From positions 257,611 through 321,610 of the forward strand of contig DAOUKM010000019.1 in NCBI GenBank assembly GCA_034421295.1: a stretch of 64,000 bases of DNA. Reading direction: 5' to 3'. The notes under the pieces are model-generated. The model had not been told where the DNA came from. It saw only the letters and a list, made by a program, of their open reading frames with translations, and searched no databases. Source of the DNA: Dehalococcoidia bacterium (lineage in GTDB: Bacteria > Chloroflexota > Dehalococcoidia > Lucifugimonadales > UBA2962). A program made the position numbers and the translations under genes. Numbering within the stretch: position 1 is the stretch's first letter; each line of letters opens with the position of its first letter. Shown one piece after another: positions 15,203 to 62,738 of this stretch.

Positions 15203-15326
15203 TTGTGCATGCACCCTTCCGCCGGGCTCTCTGGGAACGTCGCGGCATAGGGACCACTGCGGGTGAAGGCCACGGGTGACCATCCAGCGACGGCAGGATT
15301 GAACAGTCTGCGAGGAGAATCTACAT

Positions 15327-16355: not shown

Positions 16356-16358
16356 CCC

Positions 16359-17387: not shown

Positions 17388-17424
17388 GCGGCCGAACACC
17401 TACACTGGCGACTGGGAGGACCTA

Positions 17425-46441: not shown

Positions 46442-47365
46442 GTGGTGCTTTCCGAGGTCATGACCGTGACCGGCCCCGTCACGCCGGACGATCTGGGGTT
46501 CACTCTAATCCATGAGCACATCTTCCTGTCGCTCCTGATGGACCATCTGGACACCGATCGGGTGCTCGACGATCCGGGCGCCGCGAGGACCGAACTGCAG
46601 CGGTACAAGGATGCCGGCGGTGTCACGCTCGTAGATCAGACCAACAGGGGACTGGAGCAACAGCCGGAGGCGGTTCGGCAAATGGCCCTTGAGACCGGTC
46701 TATTGGTCGTTCTCGGTTGCGGGTGGTACCGTGAGCCCTTCTACGAACAGCGCCTGTACAGGGAGTCGGCCAGTCAGATCGCCGACGAGATGATCCGGGA
46801 TATGCGGGAAGGGATCGACGGGAGCTGCGTCCGAGCCGGGTTAATTGGTGAGCTCGGCGCACACGAGACCTGGATATCGCCGGTTGAGGAACGCGTGCTT
46901 CGGGCCGGAGCCCGCGCTCATCTCCAAACGGACGTCACCATCGCCACACATGGCCTCTTCGCGCCGGTGGGACTGGACCAGCTGGATATCCTCGAGGAGG
47001 AGGGAGTCGACCCGAGAAGGGTGATCGTGGGCCATGCCCACGACTACCCCGAGCACGAATACCATGCGGAGATCGCCCGCAGGGGTGCGTTCGTGTCGTT
47101 CGACGGTATGTCCGATCGAAACCGCTTTTTGCTTGAACGCGACTTGAGGAACATCAAGAAGATCGTCGATGCGGGTTACATAAATCAGCTCCTGCTGGCT
47201 CACGACGTGTGCCTGAGGTCCGCCTACGTGTCGGCCGGGGGGGAGGGGTACCAGTTCATCTCCACGGGTCTGTATCCGTACCTGAGGGAAATCGGCATCA
47301 CGGAAGAGCAGTTTCAGAACATCATGGTGGACAATCCCCGCCGGGCTCTTACCGGCGAGGGCTGA
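46442..47365 (+). CDS. Phosphotriesterase-homology protein (Php/PTER family), paralog 5
   Basis: LGFTLIHEHIF, GLIGELGA, IATHGL, IVGHAH, LLAHDVC; over half identical to paralog 3 by eye; alternative ATG start at 46460. Confidence 0.85.
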   Translation: MVLSEVMTVTGPVTPDDLGFTLIHEHIFLSLLMDHLDTDRVLDDPGAARTELQRYKDAGGVTLVDQTNRGLEQQPEAVRQMALETGLLVVLGCGWYREPFYEQRLYRESASQIADEMIRDMREGIDGSCVRAGLIGELGAHETWISPVEERVLRAGARAHLQTDVTIATHGLFAPVGLDQLDILEEEGVDPRRVIVGHAHDYPEHEYHAEIARRGAFVSFDGMSDRNRFLLERDLRNIKKIVDAGYINQLLLAHDVCLRSAYVSAGGEGYQFISTGLYPYLREIGITEEQFQNIMVDNPRRALTGEG

Positions 47366-47382
47366 TCCACAGCCCTTCAGAC

Positions 47383-48723: not shown

Positions 48724-49134
48724 TCAAACGATTCTGAAATCGCGCTCCAGGATGTTGCCGTCGGGAGAGATCCTGTACAGACGGACTTCTGGCTCCTGCT
48801 CGTCCTGCAGGGAGACGAGCAGGTAGTAGGGATCCAGCCACCCGCTCTCCAGGGCCATGCGAACGTCTGTGGAGGACGGGTAGGGGCTGCTGTGGGTGTG
48901 GGAATGGTAAAAGACGATCAGGTTCAGCCCCTGCATTTCGGCGTCCCTGTCCGCGTTCAGGAACTCCTGCGGATCCATGAGGTAGCGAAACGGGCTCTTG
49001 GCCGTGTTCGTAATTCGATACCCCCGAACGGCGGTGGAGTCTACGCCGGCGATTACGCCGCAGCACTCGTTCGGGTTCTCCGCCAATGCGTGGGTGATCA
49101 GGTCGTCGATCACCGCGCGTGGAAATTTAAGCAC
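48724..49134 (-). CDS. JAMM/MPN+ metallopeptidase (Mov34/Mec-like)
   Basis: 136 aa; complete JAMM signature: NECCG Glu, then HSHTHSSPYPSSTD (HxH-x7-S-x2-D). Confidence 0.8.
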   Translation of the reverse strand: MLKFPRAVIDDLITHALAENPNECCGVIAGVDSTAVRGYRITNTAKSPFRYLMDPQEFLNADRDAEMQGLNLIVFYHSHTHSSPYPSSTDVRMALESGWLDPYYLLVSLQDEQEPEVRLYRISPDGNILERDFRIV

Positions 49135-49182
49135 GCGGCTACCGGTGCCTGAAAATACCGGGCGACTGCCTCAAGAACGGGG

Positions 49183-49926
49183 CTACGTACGTATCGGCGG
49201 GCCGGCGCTCAGGTCGCCTGAGGCCAGACCTTCTGCCGCCCTGATCACCATGCCGGCGGCGTATTCTAGACCGACTGCGCTGGTGTTGATGTAGAAGTGG
49301 AATTGTCGGACGTCCTCGGGATTGTCTAGCTGGAAAAAGCGCTTGAAATGATACTCTCTTGCGCGGTCCCGGTCGGTGATGACCGCGATAGCCTCGTCCC
49401 TGCCGATGCTGTCGCGCTCCTTTATGCGGGCGACCCGGTCCTCGTACTCGGCCGCCACCCCTATCCGAAGAACCCTCGGGTCATCCTTGAGGATGTACGA
49501 TCCGGTCCGCCCGACGATGACCACGTTGTCGGAGGATGCCAGGTCATTGAATACGCTCCGAAGGCCCTCCAGATAGGCCTCATCTTCGACCTCGTGGCCC
49601 TTGGTTATCGTCGGCTGAGGGAGGTCTTCGTATTCCTGGGTCAGAAATGCGACGGCACCGGGGCCGAAGTAGGGGTCCCCCCCTGCGCCGCTTACGGCCG
49701 ATCTCTCCAGTATGCGCTGAATCAACCTTGAGAAGCGCTCGCCCCTGGTGGGGGGACGCTCCTCGCGCTCGAGCAGGGCCTCCACCGTGGCGCCGACCTC
49801 TTTGGCCGCTCCGGTCAGGATGAGGCGGTCCACGTAGTCGGCCCCCAGCCTTTCGGCCACCATCTGGCCCAGCTGTCTTCCGCCGCATCCTGTAAGCCCG
49901 CCCATCGTTATTACGGCCATGGCCAC
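49183..49926 (-). CDS. Cytidylate-kinase-like family P-loop protein (PF13189-like)
   Basis: 247 aa; N-terminal ITMGGLTGCGGRQLGQMVAERLG P-loop variant and overall pattern of the cytidylate kinase-like family. Confidence 0.6.
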   Translation of the reverse strand: MAMAVITMGGLTGCGGRQLGQMVAERLGADYVDRLILTGAAKEVGATVEALLEREERPPTRGERFSRLIQRILERSAVSGAGGDPYFGPGAVAFLTQEYEDLPQPTITKGHEVEDEAYLEGLRSVFNDLASSDNVVIVGRTGSYILKDDPRVLRIGVAAEYEDRVARIKERDSIGRDEAIAVITDRDRAREYHFKRFFQLDNPEDVRQFHFYINTSAVGLEYAAGMVIRAAEGLASGDLSAGPPIRT

Positions 49927-51156: not shown

Positions 51157-52812
51157 CTATTCCATGCGAGAGCCGCCCCAGGCCGGTGACGCGCCGGCGG
51201 CGGTCGGCTCGACTATGACGTCTACCACGGCGGGGCGCCCCGAAGAGAATGCACGTTCCAGGGCAGGGGTTATCTCATCTGGGTCCTCGATCCTCTCCCC
51301 GTGACAGCCAAGGGACTTGGCCATCTCGTGGAATGCGGTAAAGCCAAGCTCGCGGCCCGGCTTGCGTGTATACGGGGTACGTGCGGTCCAGCCCGCGTTA
51401 TTGGCAACGACGGTGACGACCGGCAGATTGAATCGCACCAGTGTGTCGAGCTCCATGGCGTTCATGCCCATTGAACCGTCCCCGTGCAGCACCAGGACCT
51501 GCTTATCCGGCTTGGCCAGCTTGGCACCGATCCCGTAGGGAAGGCCTACCCCCATCGTGCCGGTCACCCCGGAATTGAGGCGGTGCCCTGGTATATAGGT
51601 GCTGATGGACTGCCGTCCAAAGTGGAGTATCTCGTTTCCGTCCACAGAGACGATCGCGTCTCGGTCTAGGAAGCTGTTGATCTCGTTGCAGAGCCGGAGT
51701 GGATGTATGGGGGTCTGAGGCGAGGTGAGCAGGGACTGCATCTGGGCCGCCTTCGATTCCTGGTATTCGGACAGCCTGGCGATCCAGGGCGACTCACGCC
51801 GACCGGCAAACTCGTGACCGCGTGCCTCGGCCGCGTCGGCCAGCTGTCCCAGGGCCATCCGGGCGTCGGCGACGATTCCGAGGTCGCAGTCCCGATTGTG
51901 GCCGACCTCTGAGGCGTCGATGTCGATCTGGATGATCTTTGCGTCCCGGGCAAAGCGGCCCCCGTACTGCATCATCCAGTTGAGCCGGGTGCCCACAACG
52001 AACACCAGGTCCGCCTCTCGCATCGCTGTGCTGCGTGCCGCAGGGAACGAGACGGGATGGTCCTCGGGCGCCAGGCCCCGGGACATCGGAGCGGTGTAGA
52101 ACGGGGTACTGGTCAGGTCGACGAACCGCTCGAACTCCGATGCGCCTTCCGAGAAAAAGACTCCGCCACCGGCAAAGATGATGGGCCGCTCGGCCTCGGC
52201 CAGCATCGCGGCGGCGCGGTCGATGGCGGCGGGGTCGGCTGCCGGCCTGGACTTCGTGCGCGATCTGCTAGGTCTGATCGCACTGCCCTCCTCGATCTCC
52301 TCGTATAGCACGTCGGCTCCGCAATCCACGTACACGGGGCCCGGCCTGCCGGAGGAGGCCTGCCGGAAGGCGGTGCTCACTATCTCCGGGTAGCGTTCCG
52401 CCCGGGTGGGCTGGTGGACGTACTTGCACAGGGGCTCGAAGATTCCGACCTGGTCGACCTCTTGGAAGGCCTCGCGACCTATCTCGTGGACCGGGCCCGC
52501 GCCACCAAGAATCACCATCGGGGCGCAGTCGATCGAGGCCGTGTAGGCTCCGGTGAGCAGGTTGAGCGTTCCCGGCCCGGAAGCCGCAGTGCATACCCCC
52601 GGCCTGCCGGTCACACGGGCGTAGGCATGCGCCGCAAAGGCGGCGGCCTGCTCGTGGCGAAAGTCAACGGTCTTGATGCCGAGATCCTGCGCCGCCATCA
52701 CGATATCGAAGTTTGGACCGCCCATCAGGTAGAAGAGGACCGATACGCCCTCTTCCTTCAGGGTCCGGGCCACCAGGTAGCTTCCGGTTACCGTGCCCAT
52801 GGACTCCTCCAA
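51157..52812 (-). CDS. Thiamine-pyrophosphate enzyme of the acetolactate synthase / oxalyl-CoA decarboxylase / 2-hydroxyacyl-CoA lyase group
   Basis: 551 aa; three-domain layout, TPP motif LHGDGSMGMNAMELDT...NN; alternative start at 52800. Confidence 0.85.
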   Translation of the reverse strand: MEESMGTVTGSYLVARTLKEEGVSVLFYLMGGPNFDIVMAAQDLGIKTVDFRHEQAAAFAAHAYARVTGRPGVCTAASGPGTLNLLTGAYTASIDCAPMVILGGAGPVHEIGREAFQEVDQVGIFEPLCKYVHQPTRAERYPEIVSTAFRQASSGRPGPVYVDCGADVLYEEIEEGSAIRPSRSRTKSRPAADPAAIDRAAAMLAEAERPIIFAGGGVFFSEGASEFERFVDLTSTPFYTAPMSRGLAPEDHPVSFPAARSTAMREADLVFVVGTRLNWMMQYGGRFARDAKIIQIDIDASEVGHNRDCDLGIVADARMALGQLADAAEARGHEFAGRRESPWIARLSEYQESKAAQMQSLLTSPQTPIHPLRLCNEINSFLDRDAIVSVDGNEILHFGRQSISTYIPGHRLNSGVTGTMGVGLPYGIGAKLAKPDKQVLVLHGDGSMGMNAMELDTLVRFNLPVVTVVANNAGWTARTPYTRKPGRELGFTAFHEMAKSLGCHGERIEDPDEITPALERAFSSGRPAVVDVIVEPTAAGASPAWGGSRME

Positions 52813-52982
52813 GTCGCCAAAGTGGAGGCCAGATTAACACAGAGGCCCTCAAGGGCCGTACCGTGCGGAGCGCGGGCAAAGTCCTGCTTACATGCGTTAG
52901 ACTTACCGCCCCACACCCGCTACAGAACGTCAATCAGGACCGCTCGTCCGCCCACTTGGTCGGACCCTTCCGGGAGGTGTTT

Positions 52983-54173
52983 ATGCGCAGGCTGGCTGCA
53001 CTGATCTTGATTATGGCTTTCGTCCTGGCCGCCCTGGCCTGTAGCAGCAGTCCCGCGGCTCCATCTTCCCAGGAGGCCGGCGAGGTTGTCACCGACGCCG
53101 GAGGGGAGGTTGAGACGGCCGGTGTGACCACCCCGGCCGGACCGGGCAGGTTCGTCGCAACGGACAAGATGGTGGACGCGCGTGGCTACCACGCCGCCGT
53201 CAAGCTTGCGGACGGCAGGGTAATGGCCATCGCCGGCAAGAGCCGGGGCGGGGCCTCGGCCTGGAAGCCGTCGTCGATCGAGGCCACCGCGATCTACGAT
53301 CCCTCCACTGGGAAGTGGACGGACTCGGCGCTGCTTTCCACCGTTCGCGAGCACCCGACCGGCCACCTGCTTCAGGACGGGCGGATCATAGTCATAGGGG
53401 GCTCAGCTGTTCGCCAGGAGCCGCTCGCCTCGGTTGAGGTCTACGACGTTGCGGCCGACAGCTGGACGGAGGTGGCCCCAATGTCCGCCCAACGCTGGCG
53501 ACACGCCTCGGTGGTTCTCGACGACGGCAGGGTGCTGGTGGTAGGTGGCGAAGAGCAGGATCTCGTGCTGGTGGCCGAGGCCGAGATCTGGGACCCGGTA
53601 AGCGACGCCTGGACGGAAGCCGGTTCCCTGACGGATGCGCGGGCCCTTCATACAGCCACGCTCCTGGCGGATGGAAGGGTGCTCGTAGTCGGCGGGGGCA
53701 AGCGCGAGTCTCCATACCTGAAGACCACTGAGATCTTCGACCCGCAGACGGGTGAGTGGACCCAGGCGGCGCCGACGCAGGTTGCTCATTCGGCACACAC
53801 GGCAACGCTCCTGTCAGACGGCCGTGTGCTGGTGACCGGTGGCAAGGGCAAGGTGACCCTGACCGAGCTGTACGATCCCGAAGCCGATGCATGGACCAGC
53901 GCGGGCGAGCTGTCGGAGTGGCGGGCTGAGCATGCCGCGGTGCTGCTCTCAGACGGGCGCGTGCTAGTGACCGGTGGTATCGGCAAGGTCGCGACAACGG
54001 ATATCTTCGATCCGCAGACGGACGAGTGGTCCGAAGGCGCGAACATGGTCGAGACCCGCTACGCACACAGCATGACCCGGCTCGACGACGGGCGGGTCCT
54101 GGTGATCGGTGGGAATTCAACCGACGGCGACCAGAGGGGCGTAACCACGGAGGTCGAACTGTGGGAGCCGTAG
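52983..54173 (+). CDS. Kelch-repeat beta-propeller lipoprotein, paralog 2
   Basis: Track ORF 52713..54173 overlaps the TPP gene. ATG 52983 follows GGGAGGTG and opens MRRLAALILIMAFVLAALAC (lipobox). Seven to eight blades H.ATLL.DGRVLV.GG...T.EI.DP.T..W. Confidence 0.75.
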   Translation: MRRLAALILIMAFVLAALACSSSPAAPSSQEAGEVVTDAGGEVETAGVTTPAGPGRFVATDKMVDARGYHAAVKLADGRVMAIAGKSRGGASAWKPSSIEATAIYDPSTGKWTDSALLSTVREHPTGHLLQDGRIIVIGGSAVRQEPLASVEVYDVAADSWTEVAPMSAQRWRHASVVLDDGRVLVVGGEEQDLVLVAEAEIWDPVSDAWTEAGSLTDARALHTATLLADGRVLVVGGGKRESPYLKTTEIFDPQTGEWTQAAPTQVAHSAHTATLLSDGRVLVTGGKGKVTLTELYDPEADAWTSAGELSEWRAEHAAVLLSDGRVLVTGGIGKVATTDIFDPQTDEWSEGANMVETRYAHSMTRLDDGRVLVIGGNSTDGDQRGVTTEVELWEP

Positions 54174-54302: not shown

Positions 54303-54430
54303 GGGCGCGGTTTCCGGCCCTATATGGGCCTGCAACGGCGGTAAGGGGTGTTAGCCAACTCTTCCGATGTGTTTCGGGAGGGCACCTTTGGCCGCCGAAT
54401 TTGTGCGAACCACGCCAAGGAGGCGGACCA

Positions 54431-55303
54431 TTGAAGTGGATTGACTACCACAGGCCTACGTCCGTCGATGAGGCGGTCGGGTTGCTTGGCCGATACAAGG
54501 ACAAGGCTCGCATCCTGGCCGGTGGCACCGACCTGCTCGTCCAGCTGAGGGGCGGCCGGTACCAGCTCGACGCGATCATCGACGGCAAGCACATCGCAGA
54601 GCTGAACGAGCTCACCTACGACCCGGCCGGCGGATTGACGGTTGGAGCGTCGGTGCCCTGCTACAGGCTCTACCAGGATGAAGCGGTTGCGTCCGCTTAC
54701 CCTGGCCTAATGGATTCGGCCACGTTGATAGGCGGAATCCAGATCCAGGGCCGGGCCACCTTCGGCGGCAACCTGATGAACGCCGCGCCGAGTGCGGACG
54801 CCATACCGGCCCTGATCGCCCACCGGGCAACCGCCAAGGTCGCCGGGTCTGGCGGGACCAGGGAAATCGCGGTTGAGGAGGTGTGCACCGGTCCTGGTAC
54901 GACTCAGCTGGCAGCTGACGAGATGCTGGTGTCGTTGCATGTCCCGTCGCCTCCGAGTGGCTTTGGAGCGAGGTACATAAGGTTCATACCGCGCAATGAG
55001 ATGGACATCGCCGTTGCCGGCGCCGGCGTGTCGGTCGTGCTGGCCAATGGAACGGTGGAGTCCGCCCGCGTCGCCCTCGCATCCGTGGCGCCTACGCCCC
55101 TGGTCGTCGACGGTGCGGAGTCGGCCCTGGTCGGCAAGGAGCCCAGCGACGAGAACATCCAGGCAGCCGCAGATGCCGCCAAGGCAGCCGCAAGGCCTAT
55201 AACCGACATGCGCGGCACCATCGAGTACCGAAAACACCTCTGCGAGGTACTTACCCGCAGAGCACTTCACACTGCTGTTGAGCGGGCGCGGGAGGGCAAG
55301 TAG
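54431..55303 (+). CDS. Xanthine-dehydrogenase-family FAD-binding (medium, CoxM/CutM-like) subunit
   Basis: Track ORF 54401..55303; TTG 54431 follows AAGGAGG. ILAGGTDLLVQL FAD-binding motif, C-terminal CO_deh_flav_C pattern (DMRGTIEYRKHL). Confidence 0.85.
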   Translation: MKWIDYHRPTSVDEAVGLLGRYKDKARILAGGTDLLVQLRGGRYQLDAIIDGKHIAELNELTYDPAGGLTVGASVPCYRLYQDEAVASAYPGLMDSATLIGGIQIQGRATFGGNLMNAAPSADAIPALIAHRATAKVAGSGGTREIAVEEVCTGPGTTQLAADEMLVSLHVPSPPSGFGARYIRFIPRNEMDIAVAGAGVSVVLANGTVESARVALASVAPTPLVVDGAESALVGKEPSDENIQAAADAAKAAARPITDMRGTIEYRKHLCEVLTRRALHTAVERAREGK

Positions 55304-55792
55304 ATGTCGGGCAAGAAGGTTCACGTTACGACCACGATAAACGGCGAGACCGTAGAGTTTCTCTGCGAGCCACGCCAAAGCCTTCTGGAGGTCCTGCGGG
55401 ACGTGGTCCTGCTGACCGGAGCAAAGGAAGGCTGCAACGATGGCAACTGCGGCGCCTGCACGGTCAACATGGACGGCCGGATCGTCGACAGCTGTCTGGT
55501 TCTTGGAGTAGAGGCCGAAGGCGCAGCCATAGGCACGGTTGAGGGGATAGCCTCCCCGCAGGGCCTTCACCCGATCCAGCAGGCGTTCCTTGAGCACGCC
55601 GCCCTGCAATGCGGCATATGTACGCCGGGTTTCCTGGTTGCCTCAAAGGCGCTGCTGGAAAAGGAACCGGATCCATCGGAGGAACGGATACGCATGTGGC
55701 TGGCGGGCAATCTGTGCCGGTGCACCGGCTACGACAAGATCGTTCGTGCCGTGATGGACGCCGCTGGCCGTATGGCTGGCGCGGCAGCTTAG
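55304..55792 (+). CDS. Xanthine-dehydrogenase-family [2Fe-2S] (small, CoxS/CutS-like) subunit
   Basis: 162 aa; CNDGNCGACTV and CGICTPG...CRCTGY cluster motifs; ATG abuts the upstream stop. Confidence 0.9.
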   Translation: MSGKKVHVTTTINGETVEFLCEPRQSLLEVLRDVVLLTGAKEGCNDGNCGACTVNMDGRIVDSCLVLGVEAEGAAIGTVEGIASPQGLHPIQQAFLEHAALQCGICTPGFLVASKALLEKEPDPSEERIRMWLAGNLCRCTGYDKIVRAVMDAAGRMAGAAA

Positions 55793-55804: not shown

Positions 55805-58108
55805 ATGACCACCACTTACGAACCCAACCAGGTTCTGGCGAACGAGACCTTCAAGGTTGTCGGCACCAGGCCGATCCGCCACGACGGTGCCGACAAGGTA
55901 ACCGGCAGGGCCCAGTACGGCGCGGATTTCAATGCAGCCGGCCTGCTGCATGGAAAGACCCTGCGGAGCCCGCACGCCCACGCCCGGATCAAGTCTATCG
56001 ACACCTCCAAGGCCGAGGCGCTCGCGGGCGTAAGGGCCGTAGTGACCTCAAAGGACTTTCCGCCGGCCAAGGAGACCGCCAACTACGGGCTAGGCGACCA
56101 GCCCATGGACAGGTTCCGGGGCAACATACTAGCCGGGGATAAGGTACTTTACACAGGGCATGCTATAGCCGCCGTGGCGGCCACCAGCCCGCACATCGCC
56201 GAGGAGGCGGTCGACCTCATCGAGGTCGATTACGAGGTGCTGCCCGCCGTGCTGACGGCGCCCGACGCCATGGCTGACGGCGCGCCCATCCTGATATCCG
56301 ACCTGACCACGCAGGAATTCGGAAAGGATACCGGGGTCAACTCTAATGTCGCGGACCATTTCCAGCACAAGATGGGCGACATAGACAGCGGCTTTGGCAA
56401 GGCGGACGTGGTCGTGGAGCGCACGTTCGATACCAAGACCGTCCATCAGGGATACATAGAGCCCCACAACGTGACGGCGCTGTGGAATGACGATGACCGG
56501 ATCCACGTCTGGAGCAGCACTCAGGGGGCCTTCGTGGTCCGGGCGGCGGTGGCGGAGGCGTTGGCGGTCCCCGTATCCCAGGTCAAGGCAACGCCGATGG
56601 AGATCGGCGGTGGATTCGGGGGCAAGATCAACGTCTACGGCGAGCCGGTAGCGGCCATGCTCTCCAAGAAAGCCGGCCACAAGCCGGTCAAGATCGTAAT
56701 GTCCAGGGCCGAAGTGTTCGAGGGGACGGGTCCTACTTGTGGCTCCCATTTGACGATAAAGATGGGGGCGACCAAGGAGGGCAAGATCGTCGCCGCCCAG
56801 GCCGATCTGCAGTTCGAGGCCGGCGCCTATCCGGGCTCGCCTGTGGGTGCGGCGGGGATGTGCGTATTCACCGCTTACGACATCGAGAACGTGGTGATCG
56901 ACGGTTACGACGTCGTGGTCAACAAGCCCAAGACTGCCGCATATCGCGCGCCGGGCGCGCCCAACGCAGCATTCGGCGCCGAGCAGGTGCTGGATGAACT
57001 GGCGATGAAGCTGGGCATCGACCCGATGGAGCTACGGCTGATGAACGCCGCGAAGGAGGGGACCCGCCGCGCAGACGGTCCCGTTCATCCCCGCATCGGA
57101 TGCGTCGAGGTGCTCGAGGCGATGCGCGACCATGACCACTATAACGCTCCCGTTGCACCGGCCGTCAGAGGGGGCAAGACGGGACGAGGTGTGGCGATCG
57201 GATTCTGGTTCAACATCGGCTTCGCCTCCTCCTGCAACATCTCGGTGAACAACGACGGTACCGTTAACCTCGTCGAAGGCTCGACCGACATCGGCGGCAG
57301 CAGGGCGGCGATAGCCATGCAGGCCGCCGAGGTCCTCGGGATAGCCGCCGAGGACGTTAACCCACAGGTAGTGGACACCGACTCGGTCGGTTACACGGCC
57401 GTTACGGGTGGCAGTCGGACCGCCTTCGCCACCGGCTGGGCTGCCTACGAGGCGGCCAATGATGTCAAGCAGCAGATGGTTGAGAGGGCGGCGAAGTTGT
57501 GGGGGGTCGAGGCCGATTCCGTCGAGATGATGGACGGGGTTATCCGGTCCAAGACGGACACCGAACTCACCATGACATTTAAGGAGTTGGCCGGACAGAT
57601 AAACGATACCGGTGGTCCGATCGTGGGCCGCGCCGCCGTGGACCCCGCGGGTGCCGGAGGCTCTTACTGCGGTCAGATCGTCGATGTCGAGGTCGATCCG
57701 GAGACCGGAAAGGTGGATATCCTCAGGTTCACCACCGTGCAGGATGCCGGTAAGGCGATCCACCCGAGCTACGTCGAGGGCCAGATGCAGGGCGGAAGCG
57801 TCCAGGGCATAGGCTGGGCGCTGAACGAAGAGTATTACTACTCCGAGGACGGCCGCATGAACAACTCGAGCTTCCTGGACTATCGGATGCCCACGAGCCT
57901 CGACCTGCCGATGATCGACACCGTGATAGTGGAGGTAGCCAACCCTGGACACCCATATGGTGCTAGGGGCGTCGGCGAGGCCAATATCGTCTCGCCCCAG
58001 GCGGCTGTTGCGAACGCGATTCACAATGCGTCCGGGCTTCGCATGACGGCGCTGCCCATCAACCCGGCCGCGGTTATGGAGGCCACCTGGTCGAGGGACG
58101 GAGAGTAG
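55805..58108 (+). CDS. Xanthine-dehydrogenase-family molybdopterin-binding large subunit, paralog L
   Basis: 767 aa; GRAQYGAD, LRSPHAHARI, QGYIEP, loop KTAAYRAPGAPN, catalytic-Glu block YGARGVGE; RBS AGGAGG. Confidence 0.9.
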   Translation: MTTTYEPNQVLANETFKVVGTRPIRHDGADKVTGRAQYGADFNAAGLLHGKTLRSPHAHARIKSIDTSKAEALAGVRAVVTSKDFPPAKETANYGLGDQPMDRFRGNILAGDKVLYTGHAIAAVAATSPHIAEEAVDLIEVDYEVLPAVLTAPDAMADGAPILISDLTTQEFGKDTGVNSNVADHFQHKMGDIDSGFGKADVVVERTFDTKTVHQGYIEPHNVTALWNDDDRIHVWSSTQGAFVVRAAVAEALAVPVSQVKATPMEIGGGFGGKINVYGEPVAAMLSKKAGHKPVKIVMSRAEVFEGTGPTCGSHLTIKMGATKEGKIVAAQADLQFEAGAYPGSPVGAAGMCVFTAYDIENVVIDGYDVVVNKPKTAAYRAPGAPNAAFGAEQVLDELAMKLGIDPMELRLMNAAKEGTRRADGPVHPRIGCVEVLEAMRDHDHYNAPVAPAVRGGKTGRGVAIGFWFNIGFASSCNISVNNDGTVNLVEGSTDIGGSRAAIAMQAAEVLGIAAEDVNPQVVDTDSVGYTAVTGGSRTAFATGWAAYEAANDVKQQMVERAAKLWGVEADSVEMMDGVIRSKTDTELTMTFKELAGQINDTGGPIVGRAAVDPAGAGGSYCGQIVDVEVDPETGKVDILRFTTVQDAGKAIHPSYVEGQMQGGSVQGIGWALNEEYYYSEDGRMNNSSFLDYRMPTSLDLPMIDTVIVEVANPGHPYGARGVGEANIVSPQAAVANAIHNASGLRMTALPINPAAVMEATWSRDGE

Positions 58109-58146: not shown

Positions 58147-58446
58147 ATGGCGACCGTCTTCATACCGTCACTGATGCAGGATCTTACCGGCGGTGAGCAG
58201 ACCGTCGATATGCCCGGTAAGACGGTGCGCGAGATCGTTAACGGCCTTGACGGCCGTTATCCCGGCATGAAGGATCGCCTGATGGACGGGTTTCGCCTCA
58301 AGGGGAACATCACCGTCGCAGTCGATGGAGAGGTCAGCCCCGTAGGCGTGCTGGCCGAGGTCGGCGAGAGCAGCGAGGTGCACTTCTTGCCGGCCATAGC
58401 CGGAGGCTCGGGCGCGTGTACAGGGTTACCGGCAGACAAGTTCTAA
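58147..58446 (+). CDS. MoaD/ThiS/CysO-type ubiquitin-fold sulfur-carrier protein with 13-aa extension after the di-glycine
   Basis: 99 aa; L.DLTGGE..V...G.TV.E....L...YPG.KDRL......L...I.V.V.G and EVHFLPAIAGG match the CysO/MoaD pattern; then SGACTGLPADKF before the stop. Confidence 0.75.
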   Translation: MATVFIPSLMQDLTGGEQTVDMPGKTVREIVNGLDGRYPGMKDRLMDGFRLKGNITVAVDGEVSPVGVLAEVGESSEVHFLPAIAGGSGACTGLPADKF

Positions 58447-58473
58447 GAGCCTTTAAGGAGAGTTTGGGACACG

Positions 58474-60780
58474 ATGACGACCACTTATGAGCCGAACGTC
58501 GTACTGTCAACGAGCGACTACAATGTGGTAGGCAGCAGGCCAATACGCCATGACGGTGCCGACAAGGTCACCGGTCGGGCGCAGTACGGGGCCGATTACA
58601 ATGCCACCGGTCTGCTATATGGCAAGGTGCTGCGAAGCCCGCACGCCCACGCCCGGATCAAGTCCATAGACACGTCCAGGGCGGAGGCCCTTACAGGAGT
58701 CGCCGCCGTTGTGACCGGGGCCGATATGCCTTCGACCAGGGAGTCCGATCCGGCGGATTTCGGCCTCGGCCCGCAACCCATGAAGTACCTGCGCGACAAC
58801 GCCATCGCGAGGGAAAAGGTTCTGTACGAGGGGCAAGCGGTCGCGGCTGTGGCGGCGGCTAATGCCCACGTTGCCGAGGAGGCGGTCGAGCTCATAGAGG
58901 TAGAGTATGAGGTCCTGCCGCCCGTGCTGACCGCTCCGGAGGCGATGGCCGAGGACGCGCCGCTCCTGCACGACGACCTGTTCACCACTGAATTCGGTAA
59001 GAATACCGGCAAGAACTCCAACGTCGCCGATCACTTCCAGCACAAGATGGGGGACACGGAGAAGGGATTCGCCGAGGCCGACCTCGTTGTTGAGCGGGAG
59101 TTCGACACCGCCACCGTACACCAGGGCTACATCGAGCCGATGAACGTGACCGCGCTGTGGAACGACGATGATCGGATCCACGTGTGGATGAGCACGCAGG
59201 GACCGTTCCAGTTCAGGGACGCCATAGCACTGGCCCTAGAGGTCCCTCAGTCCCAGGTCCGCGTTACCCCCATGGAGATTGGCGGCGGGTTCGGCGGCAA
59301 GTTTCCTCTCTACCATGAGATAGCCGCCATCCTTCTGTCCAAGAAGACCGGTCATCCCGTCAAGATCACGATGACTCGAAAAGAGGTCTTTGAGGGCACG
59401 GGTCCGACGCCGGGCTCCCGCGTATGGGTAAAGATGGGCGCTACCAAAGAGGGCAAGATCACGGCCGCCGAGTCATCCCTCAAGTTCGAGGCCGGGGCTT
59501 TCCCCGGTTCCCCTGTCGGCGCTGCGGCCATGTGCGTGTTTGCCTGCTACGACATCCCCAACGTTACGGTCGACGGTTACGACGTGGTTGTTAACAAGCC
59601 GAAGACTGCCGCGTATCGAGCTCCCGGTGCGACCCATGCGGCCATGGGCGTCGAGACTGTGGTCGACGAACTGTGTAAAGGCCTCGGACTCGACCCGCTG
59701 GAGTTTCGGTTCGCTAACTGTGCCAAGGAGGGCACTCGCAGGGCCGACGGACCGGTCAATCCCAAGATCGGCGGTATAGAGACCCTGGAGGCTGTGAAGA
59801 ACCATCCGCACTGGAGCGCCCCTCTGAGCCCTGCCAAGAAGGGAGGCAAGGTGGGAAGAGGTTTTGCCTTTGGGTACTGGTTCAATGCCGGCCTTCACTC
59901 GGCCGCCACGATAAGCGTCAACGCGGACGGCACGATCAACCTGCTTGAGGGTAACCCCGATATCGGCGGCAGCCGGGCCGCCATCGCCATGCAGGCGGCC
60001 GAGGTGCTGGGTTTGAGTGCCGAGCAGGTCCACCCGCAGGTGGTCGACACCGACACGATAGGTTTCTCCTTTGGGACGGGCGGCTCCCGTACCACGTTCG
60101 CCACCGGATGGGCTGCTTACGAGGCCGCGAACGACGTAAAGAGGCAGATGGTCGACAGGGCGGCCACCATCTGGGGGGTGGATGCCGACTCGGTGGAGAT
60201 GGAGGAAGGGATCGTACGCTCAAAGACCGATACGGAACTGAGCATGTCCTTTGGTGACCTGGCGGCCCAGTTGAACGAGACGGGCGGCCCCATCGTCGGG
60301 CGAGGCTCGGTCAATCCGCCGGGCGTAGGCGGGGCCTTCGCGGCCAACCTGGTCGATGTCGAGGTAGACCCGGAAACCGGTAAGGTGGACGTACTCCGAT
60401 TCACGATTGCACAGGATGCCGGCAAGGCCATCCACCCGAGCTACGTCGAGGGCCAGATGCAGGGCGGAAGCGTGCAGGGCATCGGCTGGGGGCTGAACGA
60501 GGAGTATCACTACTCCGAGGGAGGCCACATGAACAACTCGAGCTTTCTGGACTACCGGATGCCCACCAGCCTCGATTTGCCCATGATCGATACGGTGATA
60601 GTTGAGGTTGCAAACCCCGGCCATCCGTACGGGGTCCGGGGCGTGGGAGAGGTCAACATCGTACCCCCGCCACCAGCGCTGGCAAACGCGATTTACGACG
60701 CCATTGGAATCCGGATGGAAGTCCTTCCCATGAACCCGAACGCGGTCATGGAGGCGATCTGGCAGGGGAACGGCTCTTAA
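58474..60780 (+). CDS. Xanthine-dehydrogenase-family molybdopterin-binding large subunit, paralog L'
   Basis: 768 aa; same blocks as L (loop KTAAYRAPGATH, YGVRGVGE); RBS AAGGAG; roughly three-quarters identical to L by eye. Confidence 0.9.
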   Translation: MTTTYEPNVVLSTSDYNVVGSRPIRHDGADKVTGRAQYGADYNATGLLYGKVLRSPHAHARIKSIDTSRAEALTGVAAVVTGADMPSTRESDPADFGLGPQPMKYLRDNAIAREKVLYEGQAVAAVAAANAHVAEEAVELIEVEYEVLPPVLTAPEAMAEDAPLLHDDLFTTEFGKNTGKNSNVADHFQHKMGDTEKGFAEADLVVEREFDTATVHQGYIEPMNVTALWNDDDRIHVWMSTQGPFQFRDAIALALEVPQSQVRVTPMEIGGGFGGKFPLYHEIAAILLSKKTGHPVKITMTRKEVFEGTGPTPGSRVWVKMGATKEGKITAAESSLKFEAGAFPGSPVGAAAMCVFACYDIPNVTVDGYDVVVNKPKTAAYRAPGATHAAMGVETVVDELCKGLGLDPLEFRFANCAKEGTRRADGPVNPKIGGIETLEAVKNHPHWSAPLSPAKKGGKVGRGFAFGYWFNAGLHSAATISVNADGTINLLEGNPDIGGSRAAIAMQAAEVLGLSAEQVHPQVVDTDTIGFSFGTGGSRTTFATGWAAYEAANDVKRQMVDRAATIWGVDADSVEMEEGIVRSKTDTELSMSFGDLAAQLNETGGPIVGRGSVNPPGVGGAFAANLVDVEVDPETGKVDVLRFTIAQDAGKAIHPSYVEGQMQGGSVQGIGWGLNEEYHYSEGGHMNNSSFLDYRMPTSLDLPMIDTVIVEVANPGHPYGVRGVGEVNIVPPPPALANAIYDAIGIRMEVLPMNPNAVMEAIWQGNGS

Positions 60781-60833: not shown

Positions 60834-60852
60834 GTACTTACTGGAGGTGAGC

Positions 60853-61779
60853 ATGACCAGTAGCGACTGTGGCGGCGTAATCACCCCACTGCTTACCCCA
60901 ATAACCGAAGACGAAAAGGTGCATGAGCATTCGCTCAGGAACCTTGTCGACTACCAGCTCGATAACGGCGTTTCCGGGCTCTGGGCGTCCGGCACGACTG
61001 CCGAGTTTGCCGCCCTCACTGATTTTGAGCGCGTCAGGAGCATCGAGGTGGTTGCCGATCATGCGGCTGGTCGGGTGCCGGTGATCGCCAATATCAGTAT
61101 GTCCAGCACGTCGCTGACGATCGAGATGGGGCGGTCCGTCGCCCGGCAGGTCGCGGCCGTTGCGGCCACTCCGCCCTATTACTATCCGCACTCGCAGCAG
61201 GAACTCAAGGAGCACTACCGGCGCATCCGGCAGGCCTTGGGCGTGCCGCTGTGGGTGTACAACATCCCGCAGATGCATAAGACGGTCGTCGCGCCCTCGA
61301 CCCTGGCCGATCTGGCGGAGGAAGGCGTGGTAGAGGGTGTGAAGGACAGCTCTGGTGATGGTGAATCGCTGGCTCAGTTGCATGCGCTGCGCTCCGGACG
61401 CGGGTTTGAGTTGGTGTCCACTCTCGGGACCACTCAGCGGGCCACGACCGCGGTGGCGCTCGGCGCGCAGGGCATCGTTCCGGGACTGGCGAATGCGGTG
61501 CCGGCCGTCTTCGCCGAGGCGTGGGAGGCGGGCCGCGTGGGCGACGCGGAGATGGCCAGGGCCTGTGACGATCGGATAGTTGCGGCGACGCGGCTGCAGA
61601 TGCTCGCCAGGGATGGTGCGAGCGTCCAGGGCTCGGTCTATGCCGGCCTGAAGGCGGCCCTGATGCACATGGGGGTGATTGAAGCCGACCACGTGACCGC
61701 TCCGTTCAGGAAACTCACAGACGGTGAGCGCCGCGAAATACCTGAAGTTCTTGCTGGGCTTGGCCTGGACGGCAGGTAG
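60853..61779 (+). CDS. Dihydrodipicolinate synthase / N-acetylneuraminate lyase family protein, paralog 2
   Basis: Track ORF 60847..61779 (GTG); ATG 60853 lies 5 nt after GGAGG. GVITPLLTP, ASGTTAEF, WVYNIP, Schiff-base Lys in VEGVKDSSGD. Confidence 0.8.
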   Translation: MTSSDCGGVITPLLTPITEDEKVHEHSLRNLVDYQLDNGVSGLWASGTTAEFAALTDFERVRSIEVVADHAAGRVPVIANISMSSTSLTIEMGRSVARQVAAVAATPPYYYPHSQQELKEHYRRIRQALGVPLWVYNIPQMHKTVVAPSTLADLAEEGVVEGVKDSSGDGESLAQLHALRSGRGFELVSTLGTTQRATTAVALGAQGIVPGLANAVPAVFAEAWEAGRVGDAEMARACDDRIVAATRLQMLARDGASVQGSVYAGLKAALMHMGVIEADHVTAPFRKLTDGERREIPEVLAGLGLDGR

Positions 61780-61919: not shown

Positions 61920-62738
61920 ATGGGCGACGAAGATTACACGTTTGCGGCGTTTTCCAAAAATCCTTTCTACCAGAACCTGACGGACAGGCTCATTGAGCTG
62001 GCGGAGGTCAAGGACGGCGAGCGTATCGTCGATCTCGCATGCGGTACGGGCCTGGTCACAAGGCGGATAATGGCCAATCTCAGGGAGGCCAAGGAGACCG
62101 TGATCATAGGCGTTGATCACTCAGCGGCAGCCCTGAGGCAGGCGGTGGCGGATCTCAAGGATGCCAGGGACTCGGCTGTGGTCTTCGTTCACAGCCAGGT
62201 GGAGCACATCTCCGACGCGGTCAAGGAGAAGGTGGACACTGTTTTCTTCTGCAATGCCATCCACTATGTTCCCGACAAGGGCGAGCTGCTTGACCGGATA
62301 GCCGGCACCATCAAGCCCGGTGGCAAGCTGGTGTTCAACACTTCCTTCTACAGCGGGCCGCTGGACGAGGAGACCCAGCTGTTTTACCGCAAGTGGATGT
62401 TCAAGGCCCGGCGCATATTGCGCAGGGAGCACGGGCTGTCGATTCAAAAGATCGACAAGGTGGAGTCGCGCAAGCAGCTGACCGCCGAGGAGTACAAGGA
62501 ACTCGTAGAGGGGCACGGATTCAGGATAGAAAAGCAGGAGGTGGACCCGGTAAAGGTCCCCCTCCAGGGTTGGCTGGACATATCATCGTTTTCCGACTTC
62601 ATCGAAGGCGCCATGCCTGGCGTGCCCCTTGATAAGGCGAGCATGGCGCTGAAGAAGGCGGCGCGGGAGACGTTCGAGGAGATGAAAATCTCCTACACCA
62701 CCCGCAACTGGCTCGACATAGTCGCCGTTCGCATCTGA
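61920..62738 (+). CDS. Class I SAM-dependent methyltransferase
   Basis: RIVDLACGTG (motif I), FCNAIHYV, LKPGGKLVF. Confidence 0.8.
   Translation: MGDEDYTFAAFSKNPFYQNLTDRLIELAEVKDGERIVDLACGTGLVTRRIMANLREAKETVIIGVDHSAAALRQAVADLKDARDSAVVFVHSQVEHISDAVKEKVDTVFFCNAIHYVPDKGELLDRIAGTIKPGGKLVFNTSFYSGPLDEETQLFYRKWMFKARRILRREHGLSIQKIDKVESRKQLTAEEYKELVEGHGFRIEKQEVDPVKVPLQGWLDISSFSDFIEGAMPGVPLDKASMALKKAARETFEEMKISYTTRNWLDIVAVRI

What the first reader, a model, noticed from the sequence alone, without database searches (positions are those of the whole stretch)
58147..58446. Sulfur-carrier/ubiquitin-like protein made as a precursor: GG followed by SGACTGLPADKF
The ORF ends ...EVHFLPAIAGG-SGACTGLPADKF-stop. 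MoaD, ThiS and CysO act through a free C-terminal Gly-Gly that is adenylated and thiocarboxylated. Carriers synthesised with residues after GG (QbsE in thioquinolobactin biosynthesis, archaeal SAMPs, ubiquitin precursors) must be trimmed, typically by a JAMM/MPN+ peptidase. A 13-residue, Cys-containing cap is long for a bacterial carrier. It implies regulated activation or even protein conjugation chemistry. The window contains a catalytically intact JAMM gene (48724-49134) but no E1-like ThiF/MoeB gene.
Basis: partly seen in the sequence, partly recalled or inferred. Interest (0 to 1): 0.65.

Follow-up and report, generated by a model that had tools for sequence, protein, structure and literature searches.

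The report
Capped sulfur-carrier in molybdoenzyme operon
A small ubiquitin-like sulfur-carrier gene sits inside a molybdenum-enzyme operon of a marine SAR202 bacterium; its 12 extra residues after the Gly-Gly are real but are an unconserved read-through tail of a kind common in this gene family, not a special regulatory cap.

Summary
ORF 58147-58446 (+) encodes a 99-aa ThiS/MoaD/CysO-type beta-grasp protein.

Across 80 species-level SAR202/Dehalococcoidia genomes the 87-aa core and the GG are conserved. The post-GG tail varies from 0 to 57 residues with no sequence conservation; 84% of genomes have at least one extra residue. The Cys is Ser in a 97%-identical relative and Trp in others. A syntenic 88%-identical relative ends GG-Ala. 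So the tail looks like tolerated read-through of the spacer, not a regulated or chemically special cap.

Capped carriers trimmed by JAMM peptidases are already known (QbsE/QbsD, CxnE/CxnF, MoaD-MoaE fusions). The intact JAMM gene (48724-49134, minus strand) is a plausible trimmer. It is stand-alone, 9 kb away, and only loosely syntenic with the carrier. No E1, MoaE or CysM gene lies nearby in any relative examined.

The more notable result is context. In 59 of 71 genomes the carrier lies directly downstream of xanthine-oxidase-family coxM-coxS-coxL genes. This suggests a molybdoenzyme-linked sulfur carrier, analogous to the MoaD genes linked to aldehyde ferredoxin oxidoreductase (AOR). That function is inferred, not shown.

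The parts
58147..58407 (+). Conserved 87-residue beta-grasp core of the ThiS/MoaD/CysO-type carrier, ending in Gly86-Gly87 (codons 58402-58407)
   Evidence: Pfam ThiS 32.1 bits, with the GG at the profile end. GG aligned to the terminal GG of CysO 4n6e_B and 3dwg_C. AF2 core pLDDT 82-88; Foldseek target-normalised TM 0.84-0.87 to CysO. GG invariant in 120 cluster representatives and 80 species genomes.
58408..58446 (+). 12-codon post-GG tail SGACTGLPADKF plus the TAA stop; a lineage-specific, unconstrained extension
   Evidence: Sequence read directly. Predicted disordered, pLDDT below 50 for residues 86-99. Same length only in the closest clade, with Cys replaced by Ser or Trp. Absent in the syntenic L004/L015, which end GG-A.
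58447..58473 (+). 27-nt spacer with the AAGGAG ribosome-binding site of coxL2; strongly conserved at the nucleotide level together with the 3' half of the tail
   Evidence: 0-2 differences per 27 nt among the window, L008, L009, L010 and L016, against 15-23 of 87 at core third codon positions.
54401..55303 (+). coxM-like FAD-binding subunit of a xanthine-oxidase-family enzyme (the true start may lie about 30 nt downstream)
   Evidence: Pfam FAD_binding_5 4.9e-40 and CO_deh_flav_C 5.1e-27. Orthologues are 290 aa.
55304..55792 (+). coxS-like [2Fe-2S] subunit
   Evidence: Pfam Fer2_2 4.8e-31 and Fer2.
55805..58108 (+). coxL1, molybdopterin-binding large subunit of the xanthine-oxidase family; stop codon 38 nt upstream of the carrier start
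   Evidence: Pfam Ald_Xan_dh_C, MoCoBD_1 and MoCoBD_2. Motifs GGGFGG, AYRAPGA and GVGE. No NCBIfam equivalog cut-off reached.
58474..60780 (+). coxL2, a 72%-identical paralogue of coxL1 immediately downstream of the carrier
60847..61779 (+). DHDPS-family (class I aldolase-like) gene; a conserved downstream partner of the cluster
   Evidence: Pfam DHDPS 1.3e-45. Present downstream of the carrier in 58 of 71 loci.
48724..49134 (-). Stand-alone JAMM/MPN+ metallopeptidase; candidate trimming enzyme
   Evidence: Prok-JAB 1.5e-23. NCBIfam desampylase 75.8 bits, below the 130 cut-off. Glu in NPNECCG plus HSHTHSSPYPSSTD, i.e. E...HxHx7SxxD. An orthologue lies within 10 kb upstream of the carrier, always on the opposite strand, in 17 of 80 loci.

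Best explanation
The gene encodes a genuine CysO/MoaD/SAMP1-type beta-grasp sulfur-carrier protein. It belongs to a subfamily that, in the genome collection scanned, was found only in SAR202/Dehalococcoidia.

The functional unit is the 87-residue core ending in Gly-Gly. The 12 residues that follow are an evolutionarily unconstrained, lineage-specific continuation of the reading frame into the spacer before coxL2.

Inferred mechanism:
1. The tail is clipped after Gly87 by a trans-acting JAMM/MPN+ peptidase. The stand-alone gene at 48724-49134 is the obvious candidate.
2. The exposed GG is adenylated and thiocarboxylated by an E1-like ThiF/MoeB/MoeZ enzyme encoded elsewhere in the genome.
3. The thiocarboxylate donates sulfur.

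The carrier sits inside or directly after xanthine-oxidase-family coxM-coxS-coxL operons in most genomes. The most likely sulfur acceptor is therefore the molybdenum cofactor of these enzymes: the molybdopterin dithiolene, i.e. a MoaD-like role, or possibly the terminal sulfido ligand.

Shown here: gene reality, fold, GG alignment, tail variability and operon context. Inferred: trimming, E1 activation and the sulfur acceptor.
For: Family, fold and GG register:
- Pfam ThiS is above its cut-off, with the GG at the profile end. NCBIfam moaD_arch, SAMP1 and moaD alignments all end at residue 87.
- PDB sequence hits to CysO end exactly at the GG.
- The AF2 model is a beta-grasp with a disordered tail. 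Top Foldseek hits are CysO, SAMP1, a MoaD-related protein and MoaD.

Core constrained, tail not:
- The GG and the [ED]VHFLPAIxGG motif are invariant in 120 homologues and 80 species genomes. Tails run from 0 to 57 aa with unrelated sequences.
- In the close clade, core changes are 22 synonymous to 4 non-synonymous, against 0 to 3 in the tail.
- In the same clade tails differ widely (1, 5, 12, 13, 23 and 31 aa). In L011 and L014 the frame runs up to the coxL2 start.

Operon context:
- coxM-coxS-coxL lies directly upstream in 59 of 71 loci that have at least 8 kb of upstream sequence.
- A 54%-identical metagenomic relative is also abutted by a MoCoBD_2 gene.

JAMM:
- The motif is intact.
- An orthologue lies within 10 kb upstream in 17 of 80 loci. 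Among the 71 loci with at least 8 kb upstream, that is 9 of 15 near and 7 of 56 distant loci. The TPP-enzyme neighbour is retained in 0 of 56 distant loci.
- JAMM orthologues exist on the same contigs as the long-tail carriers L011 and L014, judged by matching contig lengths.

Precedents:
- QbsE (GG-CF) with QbsD, and CxnE (GG plus a decapeptide) with CxnF and a MoeZ acting in trans (PMC5925218).
- JAMM cleavage of MoaD-MoaE fusions is needed for molybdopterin synthase activity (PMC8832034, PMC4326299).
- MoaD paralogues lie strictly adjacent to tungsten aldehyde ferredoxin oxidoreductase genes (PMC1779556).
Against: - No E1, MoaE, rhodanese or XdhC-type gene is linked to the carrier. None appears in the window or in 1.74 Mb of window plus related loci, nor in the Pfam gene tables. 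The partners are therefore hypothetical.
- The protein scores far below the curated MoaD equivalog cut-off (18.4 against 66 bits) and is closer to CysO.
- In 11 genomes the carrier is an orphan without coxMSL nearby. Its role therefore cannot be confined to the adjacent enzyme.
- JAMM is not co-operonic. It occurs next to carriers with no tail and at loci without a carrier.
- No expression, mass-spectrometry or biochemical data exist.
Confidence: 0.55

Rival explanations
1. One reading: the long, Cys-containing cap is a purposeful pro-sequence. It would impose regulated activation, or take part in special chemistry such as intramolecular thioester or persulfide formation, or protein conjugation.
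For: A tail of the same length, ending in a similar [LF][PR]AD[KR]F motif, is kept in the closest clade. An intact JAMM gene is in the window.
Against: The Cys is Ser in the 97%-identical L008 and Trp in L009, L010, L016 and P0001-3. Tail length and sequence are unconserved across the family, and 13 of 80 genomes have no tail. The apparent conservation of the 3' half of the tail is at the nucleotide level and continues through the non-coding spacer, which suggests a coxL2 translation-initiation constraint. The tail is predicted to be disordered.
Confidence: 0.05
2. The protein is a non-catalytic accessory subunit or assembly chaperone of the xanthine-oxidase-family enzyme. The tail is never removed, and the GG is conserved for structural or docking reasons without adenylation.
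For: Tight operon embedding between two coxL paralogues. No linked E1, MoaE or sulfurtransferase. Tails of any length are tolerated.
Against: Absolute conservation of the terminal GG followed by immediate loss of all conservation is the signature of carriers that act through a free GG. Orphan copies without coxMSL stay conserved. The closest structural relatives are all E1-activated carriers. No xanthine-oxidase-family enzyme with such a subunit turned up in the PDB matches.
Confidence: 0.15
3. It is a CysO-type carrier for cysteine or another thiol or thio-metabolite. Its position next to coxMSL would be incidental, or reflect a pathway in which the DHDPS-like and methyltransferase genes build a sulfur-containing product.
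For: The best sequence and structure matches are CysO proteins at 30-39% identity. The JAMM is annotated by one source as CysO-S-L-cysteine hydrolase (P0138). Single-residue caps, seen in 30 of 80 genomes, resemble the CysO-Cys adduct that Mec+ hydrolyses. The DHDPS-like gene is conserved downstream in most loci and the methyltransferase in some.
Against: A CysK/CysM-like gene is present in only 2 of 90 loci, 6-8 kb away. There is no mec-cysO-cysM operon. The consistent partners are coxM, coxS and coxL.
Confidence: 0.13
4. It is a SAMP/Urm1-like protein modifier. It would be conjugated through the GG to lysines of target proteins, for example CoxL, with the JAMM acting both as the processing and the deconjugating enzyme.
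For: NCBIfam SAMP1 alignment at 4e-07 ending at the GG. SAMP1 structures are among the top Foldseek hits. The JAMM's best NCBIfam hit is the haloarchaeal desampylase.
Against: Both NCBIfam scores are well below their cut-offs (30.5 against 60 bits, and 75.8 against 130 bits). No E1 or E2 is linked. There are no data on conjugates. In the known dual-function cases the sulfur-carrier role co-exists with conjugation.
Confidence: 0.07
5. The tail is an artefact: a sequencing or assembly error, or a decaying pseudogene that has lost its stop codon.
For: A close syntenic relative ends GG-A.
Against: The same 12-residue tail occurs in at least seven independent assemblies, including MAG records titled 'chromosome: 1'. 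The core is under strong purifying selection. Tails are the rule in the family.
Confidence: 0.02

Closest known systems
CysO (Mycobacterium tuberculosis Rv1335; Amycolatopsis orientalis CysO, PDB 3dwg_C, 3dwm_A, 4n6e_B) with the Mec+ JAMM hydrolase
   Same: Closest in sequence (E 2.8e-11 and 1.6e-08) and in predicted structure (30-39% identity, target-normalised TM 0.84-0.87). About 90-residue beta-grasp with the same ...LPA[IV]AGG C-terminal motif. A small stand-alone Mec+/HvJAMM1-like JAMM exists in the genome.
   Different: CysO ends at the GG and is encoded with cysM and mec. Here the product is capped. The neighbours are xanthine-oxidase-family subunits, and a CysM-like gene is nearby in only 2 of 90 loci.
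Capped sulfur-carrier precursors of secondary metabolism: QbsE (GG-CF) with QbsD, and CxnE (GG-SEAARAEESR) with CxnF
   Same: A ThiS/MoaD-type carrier made with residues after the GG and needing a JAMM/MPN+ peptidase. For CxnE the activating E1 (MoeZ) is encoded elsewhere (PMC5925218). The tail length is comparable: 10 residues in CxnE, 12 here.
   Different: In those systems the JAMM gene is in the same cluster and the cluster makes a thio-metabolite. Here the JAMM is 9 kb away on the other strand, the cluster encodes a molybdoenzyme, and the cap varies freely between species.
MoaD genes linked to aldehyde ferredoxin oxidoreductase (AOR) (Iyer, Burroughs and Aravind 2006, PMC1779556)
   Same: A MoaD/ThiS-family paralogue lying strictly adjacent to the structural genes of a pterin-dependent oxidoreductase. 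It is interpreted as a dedicated sulfur carrier for that enzyme's cofactor.
   Different: The partner there is the tungsten aldehyde ferredoxin oxidoreductase, often with MoeB, MoaE or MoaA nearby. Here the partner is a three-subunit xanthine-oxidase-family enzyme (CoxMSL type), no other cofactor-biosynthesis gene is nearby, and the carrier is CysO-like and usually capped.
MoaD-MoaE fusions (M. tuberculosis MoaX, Deinococcus DR2607) and archaeal SAMP1 with HvJAMM1
   Same: A MoaD-type domain followed by further polypeptide that must be cut at the GG before molybdopterin synthase works; for DR2607 and SAMP1-MoaE the cut is made by a JAMM peptidase. SAMP1 and moaD_arch are the best NCBIfam matches (PMC8832034, PMC4326299).
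   Different: There the C-terminal extension is a functional domain (MoaE). Here it is a short, disordered, unconserved peptide, and curated cut-offs for SAMP1 and MoaD are not met.

Membership tests
ThiS/MoaD superfamily (Pfam PF02597) | Profile score above the curated gathering threshold | tested here: met
   32.1 bits against a 22.5 cut-off; residues 10-87 match profile positions 7-76 of 76.
ThiS/MoaD superfamily (Pfam PF02597) | Ubiquitin-like beta-grasp fold | tested here: met
   AF2 model with core pLDDT 82-88. Foldseek top hits are CysO, SAMP1, a MoaD-related protein and MoaD, all at probability 1.00.
ThiS/MoaD superfamily (Pfam PF02597) | Gly-Gly at the position of the family's C-terminus | tested here: met
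   Gly86-Gly87 align with the terminal GG of 4n6e_B and 3dwg_C and with the ends of the Pfam and NCBIfam profiles. Invariant in all homologues read.
ThiS/MoaD superfamily (Pfam PF02597) | GG is the free C-terminus of the translated product | tested here: not met
   12 residues follow the GG. 67 of 80 species orthologues also carry at least one extra residue. Processing would be required.
ThiS/MoaD superfamily (Pfam PF02597) | C-terminal adenylation and thiocarboxylation by an E1-like ThiF/MoeB enzyme | not testable with these tools
   No E1-like ORF in the window or in the related loci; 1.74 Mb was searched in all (with the query validated). The rest of the genome could not be searched.
MoaD (molybdopterin synthase small subunit, NCBIfam TIGR01682) | Equivalog score above cut-off | tested here: not met
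   18.4 bits against 66.15. moaD_arch TIGR01687 gives 32.8 against 49.5.
MoaD (molybdopterin synthase small subunit, NCBIfam TIGR01682) | Genomic association with moaE or other Moco-biosynthesis genes | tested here: not met
   No MoaE-like ORF in the window plus 90 loci (query validated). No Moco-biosynthesis Pfam families in the gene tables.
CysO-type carrier of the CysM/Mec+ cysteine pathway | Closest sequence and structure similarity to CysO | tested here: met
   4n6e_B at 2.8e-11 and 39% identity, TM 0.87. 3dwg_C at 1.6e-08, TM 0.84.
CysO-type carrier of the CysM/Mec+ cysteine pathway | Operon with cysM (a PLP-dependent sulfhydrylase) and mec | tested here: not met
   A CysK/CysM-like ORF is present in only 2 of 90 loci, 6-8 kb away. 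The JAMM is on the opposite strand 5.5-9.5 kb away in 17 of 80 loci.
SAMP1 (NCBIfam NF041918) | Equivalog score above cut-off; conjugation to proteins | tested here: not met
   30.5 bits against 60. Conjugation is not testable here.
Capped sulfur-carrier precursor processed by JAMM (QbsE/CxnE type) | Residues after the GG in the primary product | tested here: met
   12-residue tail.
Capped sulfur-carrier precursor processed by JAMM (QbsE/CxnE type) | JAMM/MPN+ peptidase gene in the same cluster | tested here: not met
   The JAMM is 9 kb upstream on the opposite strand and separated by unrelated genes. It is absent from the flanks in 63 of 80 loci.
Capped sulfur-carrier precursor processed by JAMM (QbsE/CxnE type) | Cleavage after the GG by the JAMM enzyme | not testable with these tools
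   Needs an in vitro assay or mass spectrometry.
Oxidoreductase-linked MoaD paralogue (as for AOR, PMC1779556) | Carrier gene strictly adjacent to structural genes of a pterin-dependent oxidoreductase across many genomes | tested here: met
   coxM-coxS-coxL lies directly upstream in 59 of 71 loci, and also next to a 54%-identical relative. The partner enzyme family differs: xanthine-oxidase family rather than AOR.
JAMM/MPN+ metallopeptidase (Pfam PF14464), for the gene at 48724-49134 | Profile score above cut-off and an intact E...H[ST]Hx7SxxD motif | tested here: met
   83.3 bits against 25. Motif NPNE...HSHTHSSPYPSSTD. The desampylase equivalog gives 75.8 against 130 bits, so it is not met.

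The most novel reading that the evidence does not exclude
SAR202 bacteria carry a dedicated CysO-like ubiquitin-fold carrier, usually made as a capped precursor, as an integral maturation component of their expanded xanthine-oxidase-family molybdoenzymes. One possibility is that it delivers the terminal sulfido (Mo=S) sulfur in place of an XdhC-type chaperone. Another is that it is conjugated to CoxL. A stand-alone JAMM would act as the gatekeeper. This would be a new route of molybdoenzyme maturation in one of the ocean's most abundant bacterial clades.
Probability: 0.15. Interest if true: 0.7.

Novelty: new variant of a known kind. Interest (0 to 1): 0.38.

Why it matters
SAR202 are among the most abundant deep-ocean bacteria, and their expanded xanthine-oxidase-family enzymes are thought to attack recalcitrant dissolved organic matter (PMC5395668).

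A ubiquitin-like sulfur carrier is embedded in these operons across the clade. That gives a concrete, testable handle on how these enzymes acquire their sulfur-containing molybdenum cofactor. It also says what must be co-expressed to obtain active enzyme heterologously: the carrier trimmed to GG, a JAMM and an E1.

The family is also a natural experiment. When a trans-acting GG-specific peptidase is present, the stop codon after the GG is free to drift. This is useful for annotation, because carriers should not be rejected for lacking a terminal GG.

The specific claim of a regulated, Cys-dependent cap does not hold up.

Tried and rejected
- Searched the window for partner genes (ThiF/MoeB, rhodanese, MoaE, CysM, XdhC). 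Pfam scans of all main ORFs and phmmer found none.
- Searched 1.74 Mb (the window plus 90 related loci) with E. coli ThiF, MoaE, CysK and GlpE sequences written from memory. ThiF and MoaE were validated as essentially exact against PDB 1zud and 1fm0. The result was no E1, no MoaE, no rhodanese hit (a single-sequence search, so low sensitivity), and CysK-like ORFs in only 2 loci.
- Looked for a dedicated JAMM-carrier operon by tracing JAMM orthologues. JAMM is stand-alone and often far from any carrier, so the idea of a dedicated pair was rejected.
- Tested whether tail presence correlates with a nearby JAMM. It does not: 6 of 17 carriers with a JAMM in the flank have no tail.
- Examined the unknown ORFs of about 163-166 aa next to the carrier in L005 and L092 as possible conserved partners. 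They are unrelated to each other and have no Pfam family.
- Checked a small hairpin (AGGCTC...GAGCCT) bracketing the tail. Its 5' arm is not conserved in L009 and L010, so it was dropped.
- Literature searches for a ThiS/MoaD gene in xanthine-oxidase or CoxL operons, or in SAR202, found nothing relevant.
Full report
**Observation.** ORF 58147-58446 (+) exists exactly as described. It translates to a 99-residue protein ending ...SEVHFLPAIAGG-SGACTGLPADKF-stop. The Gly-Gly is residues 86-87 (codons 58402-58407).

The protein matches Pfam ThiS above the curated threshold (32.1 against 22.5 bits). Residues 10-87 cover profile positions 7-76 of 76, so the GG coincides with the family's C-terminus. 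The NCBIfam moaD_arch, SAMP1 and moaD alignments also all stop at residue 87, though none reaches its cut-off.

Against PDB sequences the best matches are CysO of Amycolatopsis orientalis (4n6e_B, 2.8e-11) and of M. tuberculosis (3dwg_C, 1.6e-08). Both alignments run to their terminal GG. Next is the Thermus MoaD-related protein 1v8c.

An AlphaFold2 model built on 68 homologues is a beta-grasp with core pLDDT of 82-88 and a disordered C-terminus (residues 86-99 below 50). Foldseek ranks CysO first (target-normalised TM 0.84-0.87), then SAMP1, 1v8c and MoaD.

**The tail in relatives.** A protein search returned 663 homologues, and the best 120 were read. All keep the motif [ED]VHFLPAIxGG, but what follows varies: nothing in 31, one residue in 25, four in 21, and up to 39, with no sequence similarity.

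A scan of one genome per species found 186 relatives. The best 80 loci are all Dehalococcoidia, SAR202 or Chloroflexota MAGs, and the closest (L008) is 97% identical. Translating each locus to the first stop gives tails of 0 aa in 13 genomes, 1 aa in 30, and 2-57 aa in 37. So 84% of species make a capped product, and the cap is unconstrained.

The window's 12-residue tail is shared only by its closest clade:
- L008: SGASTGLRADKF
- L009: WGAWAGLPADKF
- L010 and L016: LGAWAGLPADKF

The cysteine is therefore not conserved even at 97% identity. In that clade, core substitutions are mostly synonymous (window against L009: 22 synonymous, 4 non-synonymous). Tail substitutions are mostly non-synonymous (0 synonymous, 3 non-synonymous for the same pair).

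The next relatives in the same synteny end GG-A (L004/L015, 88% identical). Others carry 5, 13, 23 or 31 unrelated residues, and in L011 and L014 the frame runs to the coxL2 start. The DNA alignment shows about 45 extra nucleotides in the window lineage between the GG and the ribosome-binding site of the next gene.

The residual similarity of the 3' half of the tail in the near clade is at the nucleotide level and continues through the non-coding spacer. The last 21 nt of the ORF show 0-2 differences and the 27-nt spacer 0-2, against 15-23 of 87 at core third codon positions. It probably reflects the coxL2 translation-initiation region rather than selection on the peptide.

The tail occurs in several independent assemblies, including MAG records titled 'chromosome: 1'. 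It is real, not an error. A wider HMMER scan of 1.8 billion cluster representatives gave 1023 hits at E up to 0.001. It shows the same mixture of GG-terminated and extended proteins in more distant relatives, with the caveat that cluster representatives may include mis-called ends.

**Context.** The carrier lies in a co-directional cluster:
- coxM-like FAD subunit (54401-55303)
- coxS-like 2Fe-2S subunit (55304-55792)
- coxL1 (55805-58108)
- the carrier
- coxL2 (58474-60780)
- a DHDPS-family gene (60847-61779)
- a methyltransferase (61920-62738)

The two large subunits are 72%-identical paralogues. Both have the GGGFGG, AYRAPGA and GVGE motifs, that is, generic xanthine-oxidase-family hydroxylase or aldehyde-oxidoreductase features rather than the CO-dehydrogenase loops. 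(The comparison with the CO-dehydrogenase motifs rests on my own knowledge of them.) Neither reaches any NCBIfam equivalog cut-off.

By tblastn with the window's proteins, coxM-coxS-coxL sits directly upstream of the carrier in 59 of the 71 species loci that have at least 8 kb of upstream sequence. The DHDPS-like gene sits downstream in 58. Gene tables with precomputed Pfam hits confirm this for seven loci. A 54%-identical metagenomic relative is also abutted by a MoCoBD_2 gene.

Eleven genomes carry the carrier as a still-conserved orphan with no coxMSL within 10 kb. None of the annotated neighbourhoods contains XdhC/CoxI, MocA, MoaE, MoeB or rhodanese families.

**Partners.** The JAMM gene at 48724-49134 is on the minus strand. 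It matches Prok-JAB (1.5e-23) and has the full E...HSHx7SxxD motif. Its best NCBIfam hit is the haloarchaeal desampylase, below cut-off. Its PDB relatives include Pyrococcus JAMM1.

The JAMM is not in the carrier's operon. A cytidylate-kinase-like gene, an unknown gene, an ABM-domain gene, a TPP enzyme and a Kelch protein lie between them.

An orthologue lies within 10 kb upstream of the carrier, always on the opposite strand, in 17 of 80 loci. Among the 71 loci with at least 8 kb upstream, that is 9 of 15 near and 7 of 56 distant loci. The TPP enzyme is retained in none of the distant ones. I estimate that a single-copy gene would fall in such a window in well under 1% of roughly 3-Mb genomes by chance, so the linkage is suggestive. 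It may still be inherited synteny.

In other genomes the JAMM orthologue sits in unrelated neighbourhoods without any carrier or E1. It also occurs beside carriers with no tail: L017, L020, L021 and L024. It is best seen as a general, stand-alone GG-specific peptidase.

No E1-like, MoaE-like or rhodanese-like ORF was found in the window or in the 90 related loci (1.74 Mb in all). The search used E. coli sequences whose accuracy I checked against PDB for ThiF and MoaE. CysK/CysM-like ORFs occur in only two loci. The rest of the genome could not be searched.

**Mechanism.** Three things are shown: a strongly constrained beta-grasp core ending in an invariant GG, a freely drifting extension, and operon membership with a molybdoenzyme.

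The rest is inferred from what is established for the ThiS/MoaD/CysO/SAMP families. The extension is clipped after Gly87. An E1 encoded elsewhere adenylates and thiocarboxylates the GG. The sulfur is then passed on.

Processing of capped or fused carriers by JAMM enzymes has direct precedents:
- QbsE (GG-CF) with QbsD, and CxnE (GG plus a decapeptide) with CxnF and a MoeZ acting in trans (PMC5925218).
- MoaD-MoaE fusions that must be cleaved, by JAMM in the Deinococcus case (PMC8832034, PMC4326299).
- Mec+ removing a single cysteine from CysO (my own knowledge of Burns et al. 2005).

For the acceptor, the best analogy is the MoaD paralogues found strictly adjacent to tungsten aldehyde ferredoxin oxidoreductase genes. 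These were interpreted as cofactor-dedicated carriers (PMC1779556). I therefore favour a role in supplying sulfur to the molybdenum cofactor of the CoxMSL-type enzymes, with about 0.45 probability for that specific step.

The orphan copies suggest the carrier acts in trans, possibly for the many CoxL paralogues that SAR202 genomes encode (PMC5395668).

The alternatives remain open but less likely: a non-covalent accessory subunit, a CysO-like role in a thiol pathway, or SAMP-like conjugation. A purposeful Cys-containing cap is contradicted by the comparative data.

**Comparison and novelty.** As a capped ThiS/MoaD-type carrier this is a further example of a known kind, and its 12-residue cap is not exceptional.

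Two features are not described in the literature I could search. First, this is a CysO-like subfamily that the genome scan found only in SAR202. It is embedded in xanthine-oxidase-family operons across dozens of species, with no other cofactor-biosynthesis gene beside it. Second, the great majority of its members are capped by random sequence. I rate it a new variant of a known kind, of moderate interest. The function is inferred from context only.

**Verdict.**
- Observation: confirmed, with a one-residue miscount.
- Interpretation: partly supported. It is a carrier made with a post-GG tail, so a precursor if the GG must be freed, and a JAMM is plausible. There is no evidence for regulation, Cys chemistry or conjugation.
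- Interest: 0.38.

Noticed in passing
window 58426-58473: The last 21 nt of the carrier ORF plus the 27-nt spacer before coxL2 are almost invariant among the window, L008, L009, L010 and L016 (0-2 differences in each segment). Synonymous sites in the carrier core differ at 15-23 of 87. This suggests an RNA-level constraint, probably the coxL2 translation-initiation region with AAGGAG, and possibly translational coupling.
   Followed up: partly
window 55805-58108 and 58474-60780: Tandem 72%-identical coxL paralogues flank the carrier. Other SAR202 genomes have coxL-coxL-carrier or a single coxL. Both lack CO-dehydrogenase active-site loops and reach no NCBIfam equivalog cut-off, so the substrate is unknown. 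The conserved DHDPS-like neighbour hints at an aldolase plus aldehyde-oxidoreductase pair (speculative).
   Followed up: partly
window 48724-49926 (minus strand): The JAMM gene is paired with a Cytidylate_kin2-family gene (49183-49926) in many SAR202 loci. Makarova and Koonin (PMC2948915) noted a JAB-cytidylyltransferase pairing in archaea and proposed a conjugation role. Whether this pairing is related is unknown.
   Followed up: no
window 3060-4115, 9891-11036 (-), 44530-45450, 45523-46437, 46442-47365: Five phosphotriesterase-family (PF02126) paralogues lie in 64 kb, three of them in tandem. This is a marked local expansion.
   Followed up: no
window 47209-48675 and 52713-54173: Two Kelch-repeat beta-propeller proteins. 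The second lies directly upstream of coxM, and a gene of similar size in the same position is seen in L001 and L004.
   Followed up: no
L026, L027, L028, L037, L040, L042, L044, L048, L053, L063, L071 (carrier at about 10001): In 11 SAR202 genomes the carrier is an orphan gene with no coxMSL within 10 kb, convergent with a Zn-dependent alcohol dehydrogenase. It is still 61-69% identical to the window protein, with 1-5-residue caps. This argues that it acts in trans.
   Followed up: partly
window 14219-18624: A 2-oxoacid dehydrogenase cluster with one E1-alpha, two E1-beta paralogues (15327-16355 and 16359-17387) and an E2.
   Followed up: no
P0259 (372 aa) and P0288 (291 aa), distant relatives: Some distant family members continue for 200-285 residues after the GG, possibly as genuine fusions to a downstream domain. 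These were not examined and may be mis-called or read-through ORFs.
   Followed up: no
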